NCBI RefSeq assembly: GCF_054482595.1
Contig: NZ_CM137008.1
Length of the DNA: 64,000 bases
Direction: 5' to 3' (one strand)
Shown in pieces: positions 10,725 through 27,156 of the stretch. The notes beneath the pieces were generated by a model. That model had not been told where the DNA came from, did no database searches, and was given only the letters and a program-made list of their open reading frames with translations. How positions within the stretch are numbered: position 1 is the stretch's first letter; every line of letters begins with the position of its first letter. Made by a program: the position numbers and the translations under genes.

Positions 10725-12206
10725 CTACGCTAATCCCAGGCGCTGAAACTGCTCTGGCGGCGCATCATTATCTTTCATCAACTGAATCAGCAACGCGATC
10801 ATCCGGGACTCGATCACATCATCATGAATCGGATGTAGCTGCTGCGGATCGTTTTGCAGATCAAACAGCAAATGACCAAACTGATTCAACCCCTTATATT
10901 TTTCCTGTGCCGGGATGCGTAATACCTGTAACCCTTTGGTAAAACGAAACGGTGGGGCCAGCGATAAAGCCCGCATCTCATCCACCGGATAGCGGCTGTT
11001 CATTTTGCAGGACATCAACGTGTAGTTGGCAATATCATCCTCACGCCCCGGCAGCGCTGCACGCATATAGACAAAACGCCCATCGGTTACGTTAACATGA
11101 CCACTGAAGACACCAAACATCGCCGAGCTGCGTACTGGTTCATCGTGACTGACCGTTTTCGCCAGCGGTTGCCCCTGCACATCGGGCGGCACTGGCTGTT
11201 GAAAAAAGTCATACAACGTTGGCGCCCAGTCGATCATTTGTACCAGTGCCTGTCGCCGCTCTCCTTTTACACCACTGCGCGGGTCCCAGATAAACAACGG
11301 ATTATTGGCAACTTCGTTGTAATAAGGCATCTGGTTTTTCGCCCACCAGCCATGCTCACCGAGTAAAAAGCCGTGGTCAGTGCCGACAATCAGCATGGTA
11401 TCTCGCCACAGATCGTGCTCATCCATCAGGTCGAGAATGCGCCCCAGGTTGCGATCGCACATCGACACCAACGAACGATACCGGCAACGGATGTGCTCCA
11501 CGGCCTCGTCGCTTTCCTGCACCCGGCCACGCGGCCAGTCATAATGCGGTCCATCCCAGTTATCTTCATACAAGGAAAGATACTCTTCCGTTGTGTGAAA
11601 CGGCTCGTGCGGATCAAACGTTTCGACCTGCAATAACCAGTTATCTTCCGCGTGATTTTTGTGGATAAAGGCACAGCCTGCATCAAACACTTTAGTTTGT
11701 GGAAAATCCGCTTCCTGCTGAATATATTCCCGGTTTGCCCAGTCATGGCGCCACAGACCAGAAACACCGCCACCGGTCTGCTTTTGCGGCACCCGTAGCA
11801 CCTCGGGAATAGGCGGTTGCGCAACGCTTGCATGCCAGTGATCGCCTTCCTGTCCGCGCACAATCTCCCACGAACTGTAGCGATTATGATAATTCCCGCC
11901 GCCATCTTCCCAGTAATGCAAATGATCGCTTATCAGGTGGGTATAGATCCCCGCCTTTTTAAGCAGCTCCGGCATGGAATCGTCAAACGGTTCTAACGGC
12001 CCCCACTCCCGATGCAGGAAGTTACATCGCCCGGTATGCAACTCCCGCCGGGCAGGCATACACGGCATACTGCCGACGTAACTGTTTTCAAAGGTGGCGG
12101 CATGAGCCGCCAGACGTTGGAAATTAGGCGCTTTGGTTAACGCATCGCCATAAGGTGGCAGATAACGTTTATTCAGACTATCGAACAGCAGAATAATCGC
12201 TCTCAT
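10725..12206 (-). CDS. Cys-type sulfatase (arylsulfatase family), predicted cytoplasmic
   Basis: 493-aa ORF; signature C-M-P-A-R-R-E-L-H-T-G-R near N-terminus; no signal peptide (starts MRAIILLFDSLNKRY); not present between artJ and rlmC in K-12. Confidence 0.85.
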   Translation of the reverse strand: MRAIILLFDSLNKRYLPPYGDALTKAPNFQRLAAHAATFENSYVGSMPCMPARRELHTGRCNFLHREWGPLEPFDDSMPELLKKAGIYTHLISDHLHYWEDGGGNYHNRYSSWEIVRGQEGDHWHASVAQPPIPEVLRVPQKQTGGGVSGLWRHDWANREYIQQEADFPQTKVFDAGCAFIHKNHAEDNWLLQVETFDPHEPFHTTEEYLSLYEDNWDGPHYDWPRGRVQESDEAVEHIRCRYRSLVSMCDRNLGRILDLMDEHDLWRDTMLIVGTDHGFLLGEHGWWAKNQMPYYNEVANNPLFIWDPRSGVKGERRQALVQMIDWAPTLYDFFQQPVPPDVQGQPLAKTVSHDEPVRSSAMFGVFSGHVNVTDGRFVYMRAALPGREDDIANYTLMSCKMNSRYPVDEMRALSLAPPFRFTKGLQVLRIPAQEKYKGLNQFGHLLFDLQNDPQQLHPIHDDVIESRMIALLIQLMKDNDAPPEQFQRLGLA

Positions 12207-12217
12207 TACGCCCTACC

Positions 12218-12538
12218 TTATTGATTAATTAAATGCGGATAATGTTGCTGAACCACTTCATAAATTTGCTGACCAATAGTTTCACCGTCCATAATATTCT
12301 CTATCGGGATCAGATATTGCCCTTGTTTCGGGTCAAGACTAACCACATCGAGTAATTTTTTGGAAATTGCAAAAATATCCGCCCAGTCGGTAAATCCTCC
12401 TACTTCACCTGCGGCGGTATGTTCCATTTCAACTTTGAAATCATATTTGGTCAGCGCTTTTTTAACGACCGTTTGTAACATAACGCTACTGCCTACACCG
12501 TAACCACAGACAAACAGAATATTAATTGTATCTTTCAT
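12218..12538 (-). CDS. PTS EIIB component, ascorbate-family (UlaB-like)
   Basis: 106 aa, N-terminal ILFVCGYGVGSS phospho-cysteine loop like UlaB/SgaB; sits between EIIC and sulfatase. Confidence 0.75.
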   Translation of the reverse strand: MKDTINILFVCGYGVGSSVMLQTVVKKALTKYDFKVEMEHTAAGEVGGFTDWADIFAISKKLLDVVSLDPKQGQYLIPIENIMDGETIGQQIYEVVQQHYPHLINQ

Positions 12539-12559
12539 TTTTAAACCCTTAATATTTAA

Positions 12560-13903
12560 TTAACCCGCGTAAGGACCAAGATGGAATGTTGCAGCGATAA
12601 ATTTCAGAACTTCACAAATAGCAGGCCATACGGTTGCCCAGTCAAATATTCCTGTCCAGCCGACGCCATTTTCAGCAAGCCCGGTTAACGGAATAGCCCA
12701 CACCGTACCGAAGGTCTGAATAATACCCAGCAAGAACGTACAGATAATTACGGAACGGTATCCGCCCATGCGGTTTGCTAATACGCCAATTGGACCGCCA
12801 GAGAAAAACAGAGGTACAAAGCCAGGCAATACCATAATTGGGCTGTGAACCAGTAATAAGATCCCCATCGAAAAAATGGTGCCAAAAGTACAGAAGACGA
12901 AGCCTAACGTTGCGGCATTGGGTGAAAAAGGCAACAGCGCGGCGACATCGACGGCGGGAATGGCATTAGGAATAAAGCGATCCTGCCAGCCTTTAAACGA
13001 ACCGTTAATTTCGCCCACCATCATGCGCACACCCTGCAGCAGAATGACCATATACATGGAGAACTGTAAGCCAAGGTTGATGATATAGATGTACCAGGGC
13101 TTGCCTTTCGCCATTAACTGGACATTATCGATACCCGTTGATAGCAAGAAACCACCGACAAACAGCGTCATCACAATGGCGATAGCCGTTACGTTATGGT
13201 TAAAAATCGCCAGCCACCCGGGGAGTTTCAGGTTTTCAGCATCGTGCTTTTCGGGGTCACCAAATTTATGGGCGAATTTGGAGAAAAACCACAATCCCAA
13301 CATCTGGTTATGAGCAATGGTAAAACCAGCATCTTTGGTAACTTTGGCAATGGGCTTAACAATGAGCGTGGTGGAGAACGCCCAGAATACACCCGTTAAT
13401 ATTCCGGCAATAATAATGGATGTAGTCCAGCTAAAACCCAGCCAAAAGACAATCAACCATAATACCGCCTGAGAATGTGAAACACCGGTATTCCCTGTCA
13501 AAAATATCCCTTTGGCACCAGTATACCGACCAAATAATACCAGCAGCAGGTTGGTAAAAAACGCCAGTACAAATACATACCCGACATAACCAAAATTATC
13601 CCCCAATGCAATTTGCGTTGCCGCTTTCATTGCGTAGGAATCCATTAAATATCCGTGAACACCATAGGCTTTACTTACGGCTTCTGCTACCGGTTTAAAT
13701 GTTGCGGAAAACTGGAAACCACCAAATAACACCATCATTAATCCCACCATGGCGCTGACCATGCCGGTAATAATTTTTATTGGCGATTTCTTATCAAGGG
13801 CATAACCAATACCCACCAGCAAACCAATTAAAATTGCCGGTTCAGTTAAAAACGTTTGAATAACATCTATGAATTTGGCAAACATCGTCGGAACGCCCTC
13901 CAT
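12560..13903 (-). CDS. PTS EIIC component, ascorbate-family (UlaA/SgaT-like)
   Basis: 447-aa polytopic ORF; shared UlaA blocks KLPGW, GVRM, PGF.P.FFS; alternative start at 13885 (MFAKF). Confidence 0.8.
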   Translation of the reverse strand: MEGVPTMFAKFIDVIQTFLTEPAILIGLLVGIGYALDKKSPIKIITGMVSAMVGLMMVLFGGFQFSATFKPVAEAVSKAYGVHGYLMDSYAMKAATQIALGDNFGYVGYVFVLAFFTNLLLVLFGRYTGAKGIFLTGNTGVSHSQAVLWLIVFWLGFSWTTSIIIAGILTGVFWAFSTTLIVKPIAKVTKDAGFTIAHNQMLGLWFFSKFAHKFGDPEKHDAENLKLPGWLAIFNHNVTAIAIVMTLFVGGFLLSTGIDNVQLMAKGKPWYIYIINLGLQFSMYMVILLQGVRMMVGEINGSFKGWQDRFIPNAIPAVDVAALLPFSPNAATLGFVFCTFGTIFSMGILLLVHSPIMVLPGFVPLFFSGGPIGVLANRMGGYRSVIICTFLLGIIQTFGTVWAIPLTGLAENGVGWTGIFDWATVWPAICEVLKFIAATFHLGPYAG

Positions 13904-14090
13904 AAGCGTACATTTCCGTTGTCAATGCATGAACCTTCTGCTGACGTTAATAATGTCTCAGGAAATTTTGTGTTTCGCTAAGCAATGCCTCTGTATGTAT
14001 TCGGTAAGTGCACTGTAGTAATCAAAACAGTTCAATTAAAGATCTTATTTGATTATTTGTGATTTGATTTGCAAAAATAGAGCAATATAT

Positions 14091-14132
14091 AACCGTGATC
14101 GATCGGTTATTATTAATCGATCGATCACGATT
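14091..14132. promoter_or_regulatory. GATC-dense inverted repeat upstream of PTS-sulfatase operon
   Basis: cgtgatcgatcg (14094..14105) and its reverse complement cgatcgatcacg (14118..14129) separated by 12 bp; four GATC sites. Confidence 0.5.
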
Positions 14133-14182
14133 ATTATTTTGAGTGAATAGTTGTTGCCGAAAAATTTACTGCCGTGATGTAT

Positions 14183-15310
14183 TTAAATTTTTACCAGCAG
14201 CGTCAACACTTCATAATGCGCGGTGTGAGGGAACATATCGAAAAGCTGCACCCGTTCAATGCGATAACCAGGCAGTTCTCGGATATCTTTCGCCATAGTT
14301 TGGGCGTTACAGCTGGAGTAGATAATAAAACGCGGTGCCATCGTTGAGAGATAATCACACAGCGGTTTACCAATGCCGCGGCGCGGCGGGTTAACCAGCA
14401 CCAGCTCCGGCACCTCCCCCTGAGCGGTGGCAAACTGAGTGGAGTCCAGCGCCTGAAATTGCAAACGCGTTAAGCCCAGTTCAGCGGCTGACTGCTTTGC
14501 ACAGGCAATGGCCTCTGGCGCAATTTCGATCCCGGTTAACTGCATGTCAGGCGTCGCGCAGTGTAAACCAAAGCCACCCACACCGCAGAACAGATCCCAC
14601 ATATGTGTAACCGGCAGTTGTCGTACCCAGTCGCGCGCGGTAGCGTACAGCTGGCTGGCGACCGCCGGATTAGTCTGGAAGAAACTTTGCGGACGGATCC
14701 ACAGCGGTACGTCATTAAAACGCTCTACCAGTGCCTGTTGTTCGGTCAGGTAGATCTCCGTCTCCCCTTCCATAATCGCCATATGTACCGGCTGAATATT
14801 GACGGTAATAACTTTCAGCTGCGGTAGTTGTTCGTGTAACCACGGCAACGCCTTACGCAGTTGCGCCAGCTTGGTATCAGAACGCAGTACAAAGCGCAGC
14901 ATCATGCCGCCATCACTCTGGCTTTCAGTCAGCAGAATGTATTTCAGTTCGCCACGCTTACGCGCCACGTTGTAGGGCGTTAACCCCGCTCGGGCGATAA
15001 ACGGTTTTAGCGCCGCAAAAACGGGCGCAAATGAGGCAGGATAAAGCGGGCAGTCACAAAGGTCTTCTGGTGTGCCGTCGCGATGCAGCATACCGAGCAG
15101 TGGTTTTTCAACGCTACCACTCACCACCATTTTGGCTTTATTACGAAACCCTTGTTCCGGGCCTGACACTGGCGCGCACCATTCCTCAACCGGAAAGTCG
15201 GCGAGCAGATTTTTAAGATCGGCGGTTTTAGCGGAGAGTTGCTCTGGAATCGGCTGCGTTATCCACTGACAGGAACGACAGCGACCCGCGTCGTAAAGTG
15301 CGCACTGCAT
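14183..15310 (-). CDS. rlmC: 23S rRNA (uracil747-C5)-methyltransferase
   Basis: 375-aa ORF starting [16 protein letters not shown] (Fe-S cysteines); synteny with ybjO/potI. Confidence 0.9.
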
Positions 15311-23990: not shown

Positions 23991-25676
23991 GTGAATATAA
24001 ACGTCGCCGAATTGTTAAATGGGAATTACATTCTGTTATTATTTGTGGTCCTCGCGCTTGGGCTATGTCTCGGAAAGTTACGACTTGGTTCGATCCAACT
24101 GGGTAATTCCATTGGCGTTTTAGTCGTATCGCTGTTATTAGGCCAACAACATTTCAGCATTAACACCGATGCGCTTAATCTTGGCTTTATGCTGTTTATT
24201 TTCTGCGTCGGGGTCGAAGCCGGACCGAACTTTTTTTCCATTTTTTTTCGCGATGGGAAAAATTACCTAATGTTAGCACTGGTGATGGTTGGCAGTGCGC
24301 TGGTGATCGCCTTAGGGTTAGGTAAGCTGTTTGGCTGGGATATTGGCCTGACGGCCGGTATGTTAGCAGGCTCTATGACGTCGACACCGGTTCTGGTCGG
24401 TGCTGGCGATACACTGCGTCATTCCGGCATGGAAAGCAGGCAGCTCTCACTGGCACTGGATAATCTGAGCCTCGGATATGCCTTAACCTATTTAATCGGT
24501 CTGGTGAGTTTGATTGTTGGTGCGCGTTACTTGCCGAAATTGCAGCATCAGGACTTACAGACCAGCGCCCAGCAAATCGCCCGCGAACGTGGCCTGGACA
24601 CTGATGCCAACCGTAAGGTTTATTTACCGGTGATCCGCGCCTATCGCGTCGGCCCGGAGCTGGTGGCCTGGACCGACGGCAAAAATCTGCGTGAACTGGG
24701 TATTTATCGACAAACCGGCTGCTACATTGAACGTATTCGACGTAACGGGATTCTGGCAAATCCAGACGGTGATGCCGTGCTACAAATGGGCGATGAAATA
24801 GCGTTGGTAGGCTATCCCGACGCCCATGCCCGACTCGATCCCAGCTTCCGTAACGGCAAAGAAGTTTTCGATCGTGACCTTCTCGACATGCGTATCGTCA
24901 CTGAAGAAGTGGTCGTTAAAAACCATAACGCCGTTGGCAAACGTCTCGCACAACTGAAGTTGACCGATCACGGTTGCTTCCTTAACCGCGTTATTCGTAG
25001 CCAGATTGAGATGCCGATAGATGACAACGTCGTGCTTAACAAAGGTGACGTTTTACAAGTCAGCGGCGATGCCCGCCGCGTAAAAACCATCGCCGATCGC
25101 ATCGGCTTTATCTCGATTCACAGCCAGGTCACTGACTTGCTGGCATTCTGCGCCTTCTTTGTTATTGGGCTGATGATCGGGATGATCACATTCCAGTTCA
25201 GCACATTCAGTTTCGGCATGGGGAACGCTGCCGGGTTGTTATTCGCCGGAATTATGCTGGGCTTTATGCGTGCTAACCACCCGACCTTCGGTTACATTCC
25301 GCAGGGTGCATTAAGCATGGTGAAAGAGTTCGGCTTAATGGTGTTTATGGCAGGCGTTGGTCTGAGCGCCGGTAGCGGTATTAATAACGGTCTGGGCGCG
25401 ATTGGCGGTCAGATGTTGATTGCCGGATTGATTGTCAGTCTTGTGCCCGTGGTTATCTGTTTCTTGTTCGGTGCTTATGTATTGCGAATGAACCGCGCAC
25501 TGTTGTTCGGCGCAATGATGGGCGCACGCACCTGCGCGCCGGCAATGGAGATCATCAGTGATACAGCTCGCAGTAACATCCCGGCGCTGGGCTATGCGGG
25601 CACCTACGCAATCGCCAACGTCCTGCTGACGCTGGCAGGGACAATCATCGTCATGGTATGGCCAGGATTAGGATAA
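23991..25676 (+). CDS. ybjL: Putative transporter YbjL (AAE family, two TrkA-C domains)
   Basis: 561-aa polytopic ORF; synteny. Confidence 0.9.
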
Positions 25677-25717
25677 AACTGAAGTTGCCCTGAAAATGAA
25701 ATTTTTTTGCACAACCG

Positions 25718-25750
25718 CAGAACTTTTCCGCAGGGCATCAGTCTTAATTA
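25718..25750 (+). promoter_or_regulatory. Candidate sigma-E promoter of rybB
   Basis: GAACTT (-35, 25720..25725) and GTCTTA (-10, 25741..25746) ending about 7 nt upstream of the rybB 5' end. Confidence 0.5.
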
Positions 25751-25752
25751 GT

Positions 25753-25831
25753 GCCACTGCTTTTCTTTGATGTCCCCATTTTGTGGAGCCCATCAACCCC
25801 GCCATTTCGGTTCAAGGTTGGTGGGTTTTTT
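25753..25831 (+). ncRNA. rybB: RybB small RNA (sigma-E-dependent, Hfq-binding)
   Basis: Matches the RybB sequence as I recall it (GCCACTGCTTTTCTTTGATGTCCCC...) ending in a GC-stem plus T-run intrinsic terminator; lies downstream of ybjL as in K-12. Confidence 0.85.
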
Positions 25832-26008
25832 GTTATCTAAATCCCCAAAATCTCCATTCTCTCCCCTGTCCAAAGCCTTATCTGACTGTCCTCTCTTCCA
25901 GAAAATCATTCTTTTTCGTACAAAGAACAAATAGTTATTGAGAAGCTTATTTAAAAACCTGAACAAAATCGGTAATATTCCTGGCTTTGCAATACACAGA
26001 TTTTTTAT

Positions 26009-26560
26009 ATGGATATTAACGAGCTAAAAGAGTGCCTTCATCTGGAAGTCATTGGTAAAAGTAGGAAATTCACATGGCGTAAAGTCATTGTAAGGGCGAT
26101 GAAACATCGGCGCGTTCGTTACTTATTCTGGTGGCGTATCGCTAAATACGGCCATGAGAAAGGTGGTTACTGGCGGAAAATTGCTGGCAAAATTGAGCGA
26201 AAAATCCTTGATAGTTATGACGTTAAAATCCCATTAGTCGTTGATATAGGCAAAGGGTTGGATATTTCATACTTAACGGGAGTTGTTATCGGTCATAACG
26301 TAAAAATTGGTGAGAATTGTTCCATCAAACCCGGCGTAACCATCGGCCTACGTGGCCATTTTGACGAAATGGATATACAGATTGGCAACAATGTCACCAT
26401 TGGTTGCAACGCCTCCATTCTGGGCGGCAAAGTCTATATTGGAGATAACGTCACGATAGGTGCACATGCATTGGTTTTGCATGATATCCCAGAAAACTCC
26501 ATTTTTATCAATAAAATAGAATACGAGATTATCCCGAAAAAAGTTATAGCCGAAATGTGA
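26009..26560 (+). CDS. Hexapeptide-repeat (LbH) O-acetyltransferase, WcaB/WbbJ/CysE-like; strain-specific
   Basis: 183-aa ORF with tandem [LIV]-G-x-x-x-x hexapeptide repeats (VVIGHNVKIGENCSIKPGVTIG...); AT-rich; absent from K-12 rybB-rcdA region. Confidence 0.75.
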   Translation: MDINELKECLHLEVIGKSRKFTWRKVIVRAMKHRRVRYLFWWRIAKYGHEKGGYWRKIAGKIERKILDSYDVKIPLVVDIGKGLDISYLTGVVIGHNVKIGENCSIKPGVTIGLRGHFDEMDIQIGNNVTIGCNASILGGKVYIGDNVTIGAHALVLHDIPENSIFINKIEYEIIPKKVIAEM

Positions 26561-26619
26561 TCGCCAGTGAGATGATTAGCGCTATCGAGGGAGGTGTTGC
26601 GTCTTATCGACCTCTGTAG

Positions 26620-27156
26620 CTACCCAGCAACCCTCTCAACCATCCTCAAAATCTCCTCGCGCGATAGCGGCTTACGGTCGGTGACAAAATGCAGCGTCAT
26701 CCCCTCAATAAACGCATCAAGCGCGCGGGCGGTTCCGGGTTCAAACCATTGTTCGAGCGTTTGCTGACTGCGCTGCATCCAGTTTTGCATTACCGTTTTT
26801 AATAGCGGTTTTCGGCTAGCCAGCGCGTAGAGCTGGTACATCAGCTCCATGTTATCCGGCGTTGCCACCTGTGAGCTGTAGATCATATCGGTGATAGCCT
26901 GGCATGCGCCTTGAGCATCACTAACATCGCTAAAAAATGCCTGATATTGCCGGGACATGATCTCAGTAAAACTGCTGAACGCCTCCAGCAACAACTCATC
27001 AATTCCTGAAAAATAGTAGGTCATCGATCCCAACGGTACCCCGGCAAGGGTAGCAATTTTGCGGTGCGTAACAGCATGTATTCCGTAAAGTTTCACCGCC
27101 TCCAGCGTGGCCTGGATAATTTTTTCTCGCCGTTGCGGATCGTTAGCGCGACGCAT
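26620..27156 (-). CDS. rcdA: TetR-family transcriptional regulator RcdA
   Basis: ORF 26620..27186; start at [15 protein letters not shown] gives 178 aa; TetR helix-turn-helix. Confidence 0.85.

What the first reader, a model, noticed from the sequence alone, without database searches (positions are those of the whole stretch)
25832..26619. Orphan hexapeptide-repeat acetyltransferase inserted immediately downstream of rybB
In K-12 rybB is followed directly by rcdA as I recall; here an AT-rich ~0.8 kb segment with a 183-aa LbH acyltransferase (26009..26560) lies between them. The protein resembles sugar O-acetyltransferases (WcaB/WbbJ/CysE-like) that normally sit inside polysaccharide gene clusters, but this one is isolated. 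An accessory gene placed just 3' of a sigma-E-dependent sRNA terminator may receive envelope-stress read-through, and could modify a surface glycan or a xenobiotic.
Basis: partly seen in the sequence, partly recalled or inferred. Interest (0 to 1): 0.55.

Follow-up and report, generated by a model that had tools for sequence, protein, structure and literature searches.

The report
Stranded phage acetyltransferase-like gene beside rybB
A 778-bp strain-specific insert between the small RNA gene rybB and rcdA carries an intact phage-family gene. The gene has a serine-acetyltransferase fold but lacks that enzyme's catalytic residues. It sits at the edge of a phage integration site, and its function is unknown.

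Summary
The window has a 778-bp, low-GC insert (25842-26619) between rybB (25756-25834) and the rcdA stop codon. K-12 and O157:H7 have about 19 bp there. The insert carries one 183-aa ORF (26009-26560).

- **Distribution:** 70 of 5,426 complete E. coli genomes have it, all at least 99% identical.
- **Family:** the protein matches phage family phrog_2154 over its full length (E 5e-69, function unknown). Relatives lie in P2-like, Mu-like, lambdoid and P1-like (pro)phages, convergent with the tail-fibre-assembly gene (52 of 74 viral contigs).
- **Site:** the left junction lies inside the attachment core of P2-like prophages. That core overlaps the rybB terminator, and about a fifth of E. coli genomes have the site occupied.
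- **Fold versus name:** the predicted fold is a shortened CysE (pLDDT 91). RefSeq's name "serine acetyltransferase" fails: every NCBIfam cutoff is missed, the Asp-His dyad is Lys73/Tyr88, and the serine-binding Arg-His is Met-Asp.
- **Selection:** Tyr-type phage copies have dN/dS of 0.02-0.11.

Most likely this is a stranded phage accessory gene that alters an envelope glycan or phage receptor. That function is inferred. Read-through from the sigma-E-driven rybB is untested. Moderate-to-low interest.

The parts
25756..25834 (+). rybB small RNA gene, with its terminator hairpin and U-run. It carries one A->G change at 25821 relative to K-12, turning a U-A stem pair into U.G.
   Evidence: Rfam RF00110, 104.1 bits, full length. 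Fold: 12-bp stem then UUUUUU. The single-base change is seen in the alignment.
25821..25841 (.). Retained part (21 of about 26 nt) of the attB core used by P2-like prophages. The core, about ATGGGTTTTTTGTTRYCTRAAAYTTA, overlaps the rybB terminator tail. The insert starts where the core's last ~5 nt would be.
   Evidence: attL of KO11FL and attR of KO11FL and UPEC132, compared with K-12 and O157:H7 attB. The empty-site query is split at this point in about 1,195 of 5,422 genomes. A phage integrase lies next to rcdA in 7 of 7 loci inspected.
25842..26619 (+). The 778-bp strain-specific, low-GC insert that replaces K-12's 9 nt 'ACTTATCTA'. It has no target-site duplication, terminal inverted repeats, integrase or transposase.
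   Evidence: Junction alignment, GC profile, repeat search. Found in 70 of 5,426 genomes, all at least 99% identical. The non-coding flanks (25842-26008 and 26536-26619) match nothing else in E. coli complete genomes, and a 27-mer from the left flank has 0 hits in IMG/VR.
25950..25978 (+). Weak candidate sigma-70 promoter, TTTAAA-N17-TAATAT (8 of 12 matches). Read by eye and inferred only.
   Evidence: Read directly from the sequence. The consensus scan, which requires at least 9 of 12, found no promoter-like site in 25600-26800.
26009..26560 (+). CDS of the 183-aa CysE-fold hexapeptide-repeat protein (RefSeq WP_000353913.1, named 'serine acetyltransferase'). It is a member of phage family phrog_2154.
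   Evidence: ORF, RefSeq annotation in O145 RM9872, Pfam Hexapep x2, phrog_2154 at E 5e-69 covering residues 2-177, AF2 model with pLDDT 91.3, Foldseek top 50 listed all serine acetyltransferases with TMq 0.59-0.75.
26009..26215 (+). N-terminal four-helix domain (residues 1-69) with the family-invariant motifs EV(I)G, F-x-W and FWWR-x-A.
   Evidence: AF2 secondary structure: H3-15, H23-32, H34-51, H54-69. Invariant columns E13, V14, F21, W23, F40, W41, W42, R43, A45.
26216..26509 (+). Left-handed beta-helix domain (residues about 70-167).
   Evidence: Pfam Hexapep at residues 91-113 and 122-156, strand pattern in the AF2 model, HMMER alignments to CysE structures over residues 57-165.
26225..26227 (+). 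Codon for Lys73, at the position of the catalytic-dyad Asp of serine acetyltransferase (H. influenzae Asp139 / E. coli Asp143).
   Evidence: Ungapped HMMER alignment to 1ssm, query residue 57 = chain residue 123. In alignment A4 this column is D/E in 66 of 68 His-type sequences and K/T/V/I in 11 of 11 Tyr-type sequences.
26270..26272 (+). Codon for Tyr88, at the position of the catalytic His of serine acetyltransferase (H. influenzae His154 / E. coli His158).
   Evidence: Same alignment as for Lys73. The column is His in 68 and Tyr in 11 of 79 family members.
26620..27156 (-). rcdA, convergent with the insert gene. Its stop codon (26620-26622) forms the right junction, and the gene is intact.
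   Evidence: ORF, RefSeq annotation, junction alignment.

Best explanation
The insert is a stranded phage accessory gene (a 'moron').

**What it encodes (shown).** The protein belongs to phage family phrog_2154 and has a shortened CysE-type architecture: four helices followed by a left-handed beta-helix. In phages the family occupies the variable slot just past the tail-fibre-assembly gene, transcribed convergently with it. In the P2-like examples this slot sits where P2 carries its Z/fun hotspot.

**Where it sits (shown).** Here the gene stands alone on 778 bp of foreign, low-GC DNA. The left end of that DNA lies within the attachment core that P2-like prophages use at the rybB terminator.

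**How it got there (inferred).** It arrived through phage-associated recombination at this hotspot and remained without any phage. It then spread among E. coli lineages or was inherited by them.

**What it does (inferred).** It acts in the cytoplasm, probably as a trimer like other beta-helix transferases. It most likely modifies or binds a sugar-nucleotide or lipid-linked envelope-glycan precursor, changing a surface receptor. That would be lysogenic conversion or superinfection exclusion, the usual role of genes kept next to receptor-binding modules.

**Chemistry.** The canonical Asp-His dyad is replaced by Lys73/Tyr88. The chemistry therefore cannot be that of CysE. Either it is base-independent (as in some N-acetyltransferases, from my own knowledge) or uses Tyr, or catalysis has been lost and the protein works by binding.

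**Expression.** Its own promoter is the likelier source, as for phage morons. Read-through from rybB is possible but unshown.
For: **Phage family**
- phrog_2154 matches at E 5e-69 over the full length.
- DNA copies 69-74% identical lie in about 240 further E. coli genomes.
- Contexts inspected: a P2-like prophage, a 47-kb plasmid carrying phage tail genes, a P1-like plasmid, a lambdoid prophage in H10407, a P2-like prophage in cryptic Escherichia and a Mu-like prophage in Salmonella. In each the gene is convergent with, and abutting or overlapping, the tfa gene.
- 52 of 74 evaluable IMG/VR loci show the same arrangement, including pairs only 37-44% identical to the window protein.
- The Z/fun slot is a documented mixed-cargo hotspot (bioRxiv 10.1101/2024.10.15.618418).

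**Site**
- The attB core was reconstructed from attL, attR and attB.
- The empty-site query is split in about 1,195 of 5,422 genomes.
- An integrase lies next to rcdA in 7 of 7 loci inspected.
- Strain 100181 has prophage, int, core, this same insert and rcdA in that order.

**Protein under selection**
- dN/dS is 0.02-0.11 among Tyr-type phage copies. Window versus phage copies gives dN 0.2 with saturated dS.

**Fold**
- pLDDT 91.3. All of the top 50 PDB matches listed are serine acetyltransferases.

**Not CysE chemistry**
- NCBIfam scores: EpsC 81.5 (cutoff 150), CysE 71.5 (cutoff 210.65), WcaB 55 (cutoff 195).
- Dyad and substrate residues are replaced.

**General precedent**
- Prophage-encoded putative acetyltransferases track capsule type in Klebsiella (PMC13123978).
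Against: - No experiment or expression data bears on function. No enzymatic partner or glycan cluster is nearby.
- Loss of both dyad residues argues against ordinary O-acetyl transfer.
- The non-coding flanks of the insert match no phage or other sequence searched, so a phage donor is inferred from the gene family and the site, not demonstrated.
- There is no second att core at the right end, so the route of insertion is unresolved.
- In strain 100181 the insert lies outside attR, so it is not cargo of that prophage.
- In other genera, His-type homologues occur as solitary chromosomal genes with no phage genes recognised nearby. The family is therefore not strictly phage-bound.
- No sigma-70 promoter passed the scan.
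- PADLOC returned no defence-family match.
Confidence: 0.5

Rival explanations
1. It is a non-catalytic beta-helix protein (a pseudoenzyme). The Lys/Tyr subclade has lost acetyl transfer and works by binding a ligand, a glycan-assembly enzyme or a phage component, for example as an exclusion factor.
For: Both dyad residues are replaced together in 11 of 11 Tyr-type sequences. 66 of 68 His-type sequences keep D/E at the partner position. The protein is nevertheless under strong purifying selection. The most conserved family motifs lie in the helical N-domain (EV(I)G, F-x-W, FWWR-x-A), not at the dyad.
Against: The beta-helix coils that bind acyl-CoA in relatives remain well conserved (near-invariant G and I positions). 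Base-independent beta-helix N-acetyltransferases exist (my own knowledge). No binding partner is indicated by the context in the window.
Confidence: 0.25
2. At this site the gene is a neutral, possibly silent remnant: hitch-hiking DNA left by recombination at the phage attachment hotspot, with no present function in the host.
For: It is rare (1.3% of genomes). No promoter passed the scan and no Shine-Dalgarno sequence is visible. The composition is AT-rich and foreign. All copies are at least 99% identical, so selection in situ cannot be measured.
Against: RefSeq annotates an intact gene under every match listed, and the copies sit on flank backgrounds that differ from the window by up to 0.6%. 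Intact solitary homologues also persist in other genera.
Confidence: 0.15
3. It is a true serine O-acetyltransferase (a CysE paralogue), as RefSeq names it, boosting O-acetylserine and cysteine supply.
For: The best sequence and structure matches are serine acetyltransferases.
Against: CysE scores 71.5 bits against a cutoff of 210.65, and PRK11132 scores 44.6 against 397. The dyad Asp-His is Lys-Tyr, the neighbouring Asp is Ser87, and the serine/cysteine-binding Arg-His is Met121-Asp122. About 70-90 N-terminal residues and the C-terminal tail of CysE have no counterpart (183 aa against 240-310 aa).
Confidence: 0.03
4. It is a xenobiotic or antibiotic acetyltransferase (XAT/Vat/CatB type).
For: Weak hexapeptide-repeat hits to Vat and CatB models.
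Against: Vat scores 28.7 against 300 and CatB 24.4 against 350. The matches cover only residues about 121-166, the generic repeat region. The closest folds are serine acetyltransferases, not XAT enzymes.
Confidence: 0.02
5. One reading: the gene is expressed mainly by read-through of the rybB terminator and so belongs to the sigma-E envelope-stress response.
For: It has the same orientation as rybB, 175 nt downstream, with no intervening ORF or detected terminator. The carrier allele has a U.G wobble in the terminator stem. No strong promoter of its own was found.
Against: The terminator remains a 12-bp stem plus U6. Phage copies of the gene share about 95 nt of conserved upstream sequence across three different phage backgrounds, which suggests the family brings its own promoter. 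There are no expression data.
Confidence: 0.1

Closest known systems
Serine O-acetyltransferase CysE and the short EpsC/WcaB-type relatives (TIGR01172, NF041874, TIGR04016)
   Same: The architecture is the same: helical N-domain plus left-handed beta-helix. The top 50 Foldseek PDB matches listed are all serine acetyltransferases (TMq 0.59-0.75, 22-28% identity). These are also the best HMM hits.
   Different: Scores are far below every curated cutoff. The Asp-His dyad is Lys73/Tyr88 and the substrate Arg-His is Met/Asp. The protein is shorter, lacking the first helices and the C-terminal tail. The genomic context is phage or an orphan site, not cysteine or exopolysaccharide operons.
PHROG family phrog_2154 (phage proteins of unknown function), annotated 'serine acetyltransferase', 'sat' or 'sacF' in phages such as vB_EcoM-613R2, Hafnia phage yong2, ESSI2 phages, Citrobacter phiNP and P1-like JL22
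   Same: Full-length profile match at E 5e-69. Identity to phage-encoded members is 76% down to 38%. The conserved N-terminal motifs are shared.
   Different: In phages the gene is convergent with, and often overlapping, a tail-fibre-assembly gene. The window copy has a different C-terminal tail, no tfa gene and no phage genes around it. The JL22 paper states that the reason for the gene's presence is unknown (PMC9603915).
Z/fun-type cargo of the tail-fibre-proximal hotspot of P2-like phages
   Same: Relatives of the window gene sit just past the tail-fibre-assembly gene, as Z/fun does in P2. That hotspot is described as carrying mixed, including defence-like, cargo and as swapping tail-fibre/tfa modules (10.1101/2024.10.15.618418).
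   Different: No sequence relationship to Z/fun was tested. The window copy is outside any prophage. PADLOC found no defence family.
NeuO, the polysialic-acid O-acetyltransferase of the K1 prophage CUS-3 (recalled from my own knowledge, not tested here)
   Same: A prophage-borne hexapeptide-repeat acetyltransferase encoded next to the receptor-binding (tailspike) gene that modifies the phage's own surface-glycan receptor. This is the mechanism proposed here.
   Different: NeuO belongs to the LacA/Maa-like branch and uses a catalytic His. The window protein is CysE-like and lacks the His. No capsule link is known for the carrier strains.

Membership tests
Serine O-acetyltransferase (CysE, TIGR01172 / PRK11132; EpsC NF041874) | Whole-protein HMM score at or above NCBI's curated cutoff | tested here: not met
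   CysE 71.5 bits against 210.65, PRK11132 44.6 against 397, EpsC 81.5 against 150.
Serine O-acetyltransferase (CysE) | Catalytic Asp-His dyad (H. influenzae Asp139/His154, equal to E. coli Asp143/His158) | tested here: not met
   The ungapped alignment to 1ssm puts Lys73 and Tyr88 at these positions. The pattern is confirmed across 79 family members. The published residue numbers are recalled from my own knowledge.
Serine O-acetyltransferase (CysE) | Serine/cysteine-binding Arg-His in the 'GDRHP' loop | tested here: not met
   The loop aligns to 'DEMDI', giving Met121/Asp122. It is R/H in only 20 of 79 aligned sequences.
Serine O-acetyltransferase (CysE) | Helical N-domain plus left-handed beta-helix fold | tested here: met
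   AF2 pLDDT 91.3. Foldseek top 50 listed are all serine acetyltransferases, aligning 137-195 columns. The query lacks the first ~70-90 residues of CysE.
Hexapeptide-repeat (left-handed beta-helix) acyltransferase superfamily | Tandem hexapeptide repeats forming a left-handed beta-helix | tested here: met
   Pfam PF00132 twice, E 7.6e-07 and 7.8e-07. Short-strand pattern in the model.
Hexapeptide-repeat (left-handed beta-helix) acyltransferase superfamily | Acyl-CoA-dependent acyl transfer by a trimer with active sites at subunit interfaces | not testable with these tools
   Only a monomer could be modelled and no biochemistry is available. Loss of the dyad makes activity uncertain.
Colanic acid acetyltransferase WcaB / O-antigen acetyltransferase WbbJ | Equivalog HMM score at or above the cutoff, and location in a polysaccharide gene cluster | tested here: not met
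   WcaB 55 against 194.65-196, WbbJ 39.2 against 243. The neighbours are rybB and rcdA.
XAT / Vat / CatB antibiotic acetyltransferases | Equivalog HMM score at or above the cutoff | tested here: not met
   Vat 28.7 against 300, CatB 24.4 against 350, covering only the repeat region.
phrog_2154 (phage accessory protein family) | Full-length profile match | tested here: met
   E 5e-69, residues 2-177 on profile positions 5-181 of 185.
phrog_2154 (phage accessory protein family) | Position convergent with a tail-fibre-assembly (Caudo_TAP) gene inside a phage or prophage (typical context, not a formal criterion) | tested here: not met
   Met for relatives (52 of 74 viral loci). The window copy has no tfa or phage gene, and homology ends at the CDS.
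Known anti-phage defence systems (PADLOC-DB 2.0) | Match to any defence-protein model | tested here: not met
   0 families at E <= 1.

The most novel reading that the evidence does not exclude
The Lys73/Tyr88 subclade may be a rewired or catalytically dead CysE-fold protein that phages keep next to their receptor-binding module. In that case it would act as a previously unrecognised exclusion or receptor-masking factor. It would work either by base-independent acylation of an envelope precursor or by binding alone. The rybB-site copy would then be a host-captured version that protects about 1% of E. coli lineages (including STEC O145:H28) from phages using that receptor.
Probability: 0.2. Interest if true: 0.6.

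Novelty: new variant of a known kind. Interest (0 to 1): 0.35.

Why it matters
- **Annotation.** RefSeq propagates the name 'serine acetyltransferase' for this protein and for hundreds of prophage copies. The residues that define that enzyme are absent, so the name misleads metabolic and pangenome analyses.
- **Phage biology.** The family is widespread, stays linked to tail-fibre-assembly genes in four phage types, and has no known function. Showing that it masks a receptor or excludes phages would add a cargo class to the Z/fun-type hotspot, and would matter for phage host-range prediction and therapy.
- **Locus.** The result shows that the rybB terminator is part of a heavily used P2-like attachment site. 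It also shows that a phage-family gene can sit at the edge of such a site with no phage around it.

If the gene proves silent or neutral, the finding is an ordinary accessory-genome indel.

Tried and rejected
- **Serine acetyltransferase, WcaB/WbbJ, XAT/Vat/CatB.** Rejected on curated HMM cutoffs and on catalytic and substrate residues.
- **Known defence system.** PADLOC gave no hit.
- **Transposon or IS-type insertion.** There is no target-site duplication, terminal inverted repeat or transposase. The 18-nt repeat ATCCCCAAAATCTCCATT (25841, 26486, 26642) and the 15-nt inverted repeat spanning the right junction look like chance matches and do not fit a deletion or insertion model.
- **Remnant of a tfa gene downstream of the ORF.** Homology to phage copies ends inside the CDS at about 26515. 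The C-terminal tail differs and nothing in 26516-26619 aligns to tfa.
- **Cargo of the resident P2-like prophage.** In strain 100181 the insert lies outside attR. No homology was found to the int-attR regions of KO11FL or UPEC132.
- **Search for a donor.** The insert flanks occur only in the 70 carriers. A 27-mer from the left flank has 0 hits in IMG/VR. Plasmids hold only 60-80% identical copies.
- **First AF2 run.** With a 21-sequence alignment it gave pLDDT 69.7, with the beta-helix poorly resolved. It was superseded by the 79-sequence run.
- **Monophyly of the Tyr-type group.** An NJ tree shows the group is paraphyletic, with a nested His-type group. There are no support values, so the number of His/Tyr switches is unresolved.
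- **Literature.** Searches for a described function, or for rybB as a phage attachment site, found only a remark that the gene's role in a P1-like phage-plasmid is unknown. Nilsson et al. 2011 (PMC3448106) list a 'PhiECO1-type' integration site in E. coli HS and CFT073 at coordinates consistent with this locus. I could not verify that it is the same site.
Full report
**1. Observation**

- The window contains ybjL (23991-25676, +), rybB (25756-25834, +; Rfam 104 bits), a 183-aa ORF (26009-26560, +) and the convergent rcdA (26620-27156, -).
- In K-12 MG1655 and O157:H7 F6294 the rybB terminator is followed by about 19 bp and then the rcdA stop codon.
- The alignment places the junctions at 25841|25842 and 26619|26620. 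The result is a 778-bp insert that replaces K-12's 'ACTTATCTA'.
- GC falls to 0.33-0.45 inside the insert, against 0.48-0.57 in the flanks.

**2. Distribution**

- The insert is present in 70 of 5,426 complete E. coli genomes, always at least 99% identical.
- In 67 of those genomes a 3-kb query spanning ybjL to ybjJ aligns as one piece with the same four genes under it.
- Over that 3-kb span carriers are 99.4-100% identical to the window, so the insert sits on several flank backgrounds.
- Fourteen genomes, including XH990 and O157:H16 Santai, are identical to the window. O145:H28 STEC strains are 99.6% identical.
- RefSeq calls the product 'serine acetyltransferase' (WP_000353913.1).

**3. What the protein is**

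- Pfam finds two hexapeptide-repeat segments.
- NCBIfam ranks EpsC (81.5 bits, cutoff 150), CysE (71.5, cutoff 210.65) and WcaB (55, cutoff 195) first. All are well below threshold. Vat and CatB score 24-29 bits against cutoffs of 300-350.
- With a 79-sequence alignment AlphaFold gives a confident model (pLDDT 91.3): four helices followed by a left-handed beta-helix.
- The top 50 Foldseek PDB matches listed are all serine acetyltransferases (TMq 0.59-0.75, 22-28% identity). The fold is a shortened CysE.
- The chemistry of CysE is not conserved. The ungapped HMMER alignment to H. influenzae SAT gives these substitutions:

| CysE residue (H. influenzae / E. coli) | Role | Window protein |
|---|---|---|
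| Asp139 / Asp143 | catalytic dyad | Lys73 |
| His154 / His158 | catalytic dyad | Tyr88 |
| Asp next to the His | neighbour of the catalytic His | Ser87 |
| Arg-His of 'GDRHP' | serine/cysteine binding | Met121-Asp122 |

- Across 79 family members the His position is His in 68 and Tyr in 11. The Asp position is D/E in 66 of the 68 His-type sequences and K/T/V/I in all 11 Tyr-type sequences. The two dyad residues are therefore kept or lost together.
- An NJ tree puts the Tyr-type sequences in a grade with a nested His-type group. There are no support values, so the number of switches is unresolved.
- The Tyr-type proteins are not decaying. dN/dS among four phage-borne Tyr-type copies is 0.02-0.11. 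The window gene differs from them by dN of about 0.2 with saturated dS.

**4. Where the family lives**

- The protein matches phage family phrog_2154 over its full length (E 5e-69, function unknown).
- Copies 69-74% identical in DNA occur in about 240 further E. coli genomes and 58 plasmids.
- Contexts inspected (all show the gene convergent with, and abutting or overlapping by up to 37 nt, a tail-fibre-assembly gene):
  - a P2-like prophage
  - a 47-kb plasmid carrying phage tail genes
  - a P1-like 99-kb plasmid
  - a lambdoid prophage of ETEC H10407
  - a P2-like prophage of a cryptic Escherichia clade, His-type and 54% identical
  - a Mu-like Salmonella prophage, 43% identical
- In IMG/VR, 52 of 74 evaluable loci have a convergent tfa homologue at the 3' end. 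These include pairs in which both proteins are highly diverged. The linkage is old.
- In the P2-like examples this slot sits where P2 carries its Z/fun hotspot. That hotspot is described as swapping tail-fibre/tfa modules and carrying mixed, partly defence-like cargo (bioRxiv 10.1101/2024.10.15.618418).
- A paper on P1-like phage-plasmids noticed the gene ('sacF') beside tfa and stated that its role is unknown (PMC9603915).
- Solitary homologues also exist. One lies between copA and cueR in a Citrobacter-like contig. One lies at a prophage edge next to mntR in E. coli. Others lie in non-phage surroundings in Rosenbergiella, Pantoea, Hafnia, Rahnella and Erwinia.

**5. Why this site**

- A K-12 empty-site query is contiguous in 4,227 of 5,422 genomes and splits inside the rybB terminator in about 1,195.
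- Every split locus I opened has a phage integrase next to rcdA: KO11FL, UPEC132, BE2-5, M00057, AF6, SX23 and strain 100181.
- In KO11FL a ~37-kb P2-like prophage lies between rybB and rcdA.
- Comparing attL, attR and attB gives a core of about ATGGGTTTTTTGTTRYCTRAAAYTTA. It covers the tail of the rybB terminator and nearly the whole rybB-rcdA spacer.
- The insert begins after ...CTAAA, which is inside this core about 5 nt before its end.
- Strain 100181 has prophage, int, core, this same insert and rcdA in that order. The site remains usable, and the insert is not cargo of that prophage.
- Homology between the insert and phage copies is confined to the CDS plus a weak ~70 nt upstream.
- The insert's non-coding flanks occur nowhere else in complete E. 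coli genomes, and a 27-mer from the left flank is absent from IMG/VR.
- There is no duplicated core, target-site duplication, inverted repeat or mobility gene.
- A phage-associated origin is therefore inferred from the gene family and the position. The actual route is unknown.

**6. Expression**

- The rybB promoter region and RNA match K-12 over 25700-25841 apart from one A->G change, which creates a U.G pair in the terminator stem.
- The terminator still folds as a 12-bp stem followed by U6.
- The consensus scan found no sigma-70 promoter in 25600-26800.
- By eye, TTTAAA-N17-TAATAT at 25950-25978 is a weak candidate, and no Shine-Dalgarno sequence is obvious.
- Three of the four phage copies aligned share about 95 nt of conserved upstream sequence, which suggests the family normally brings its own promoter.
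- Sigma-E read-through remains an untested possibility.

**7. Interpretation**

- Shown:
  - a real, intact gene of a phage accessory family with a CysE-type fold
  - absence of CysE's catalytic and substrate residues
  - location at the edge of a heavily used P2-like attachment site
- Inferred: that it is a stranded moron, and that it alters an envelope glycan or receptor. The second inference rests on the usual logic for genes kept next to receptor-binding modules. NeuO of prophage CUS-3 (from my own knowledge) and capsule-associated prophage acetyltransferases in Klebsiella (PMC13123978) are general precedents.
- The loss of the dyad leaves two live options. One is altered chemistry: base-independent N-acylation or a Tyr base. 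The other is a non-catalytic binding protein.
- A neutral remnant cannot be excluded for this particular copy.
- The RefSeq name, antibiotic acetylation and known defence systems are rejected by the tests above.

**8. Verdict**

This is an accessory gene of an uncharacterised but widespread phage family. It is mis-named in RefSeq and shows an unusual paired loss of the catalytic dyad. It is best described as a new variant of a known kind.

Noticed in passing
window 25821-25841; loci L092-L099: The 3' end of rybB and the rybB-rcdA spacer form the attB core of P2-like prophages. The K-12 empty-site query is split there in about 1,195 of 5,422 complete E. coli genomes. An integrase lies next to rcdA in 7 of 7 loci opened. 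This may be the 'PhiECO1-type' site of Nilsson et al. 2011 (PMC3448106), judged by coordinates only.
   Followed up: partly
L096 1158-2386; L093 8611-8880; L099 2111-2380; L092 6342-7793; L093 5761-7437: The P2-like prophages at this site carry variable cargo. Between int and attR there is a Panacea-domain protein plus a hypothetical in BE2-5, and a 270-nt ORF in UPEC132 and SX23. Between cI and int there is a KAP-family NTPase in KO11FL and a DUF4041 protein in UPEC132.
   Followed up: no
window 25821: An A->G change relative to K-12 and O157:H7 in the 3' arm of the rybB terminator stem turns a U-A pair into U.G. Some strains without the insert share it (strain 5283 matched 192 of 192 nt).
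   Followed up: no
window 3488-6032: A 2.5-kb segment absent from K-12 lies between the ybjQ and ybjP homologues. It holds a 599-aa ORF (3628..5427, -) whose C-terminal part looks like pentapeptide repeats.
   Followed up: no
window 10682-14192: A 3.5-kb segment absent from K-12 lies between artJ and rlmC. It encodes a 493-aa sulfatase-like protein (10725..12206, -), a 106-aa PTS IIB-like protein (12218..12538, -) and a 447-aa PTS EIIC-like permease (12560..13903, -). These are judged from the translations only.
   Followed up: no
L095 (NZ_JBRERE010000002.1, 'plasmid pE100181_149'): This 149-kb record labelled as a plasmid carries chromosomal genes (rimO, bssR, dacC, mdfA, ybjJ, rcdA) and a P2-like prophage. 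It looks like a mislabelled piece of chromosome.
   Followed up: no
window 9685-9765 (-): Rfam match to naRNA4 (RF02564), 72.4 bits against a gathering score of 59.5.
   Followed up: no
L004/L005/L006 about 5935-6000 (alignment A2, columns about 135-225): Three phage copies of the gene (P2-like, 47-kb plasmid, P1-like) share a conserved ~95-nt upstream region. It contains the palindrome CTGGATAGCCAG and a TAGAAA-N18-TACAAT promoter-like pair. The lambdoid copy and the window copy are diverged there.
   Followed up: no
L012 3977-5914 (Rosenbergiella epipactidis): A His-type homologue lies next to a 645-aa ORF whose N-terminus looks like a membrane acyltransferase-3 (OafA-like) protein. This could hint at glycan acetylation. 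Judged from the translation only.
   Followed up: no
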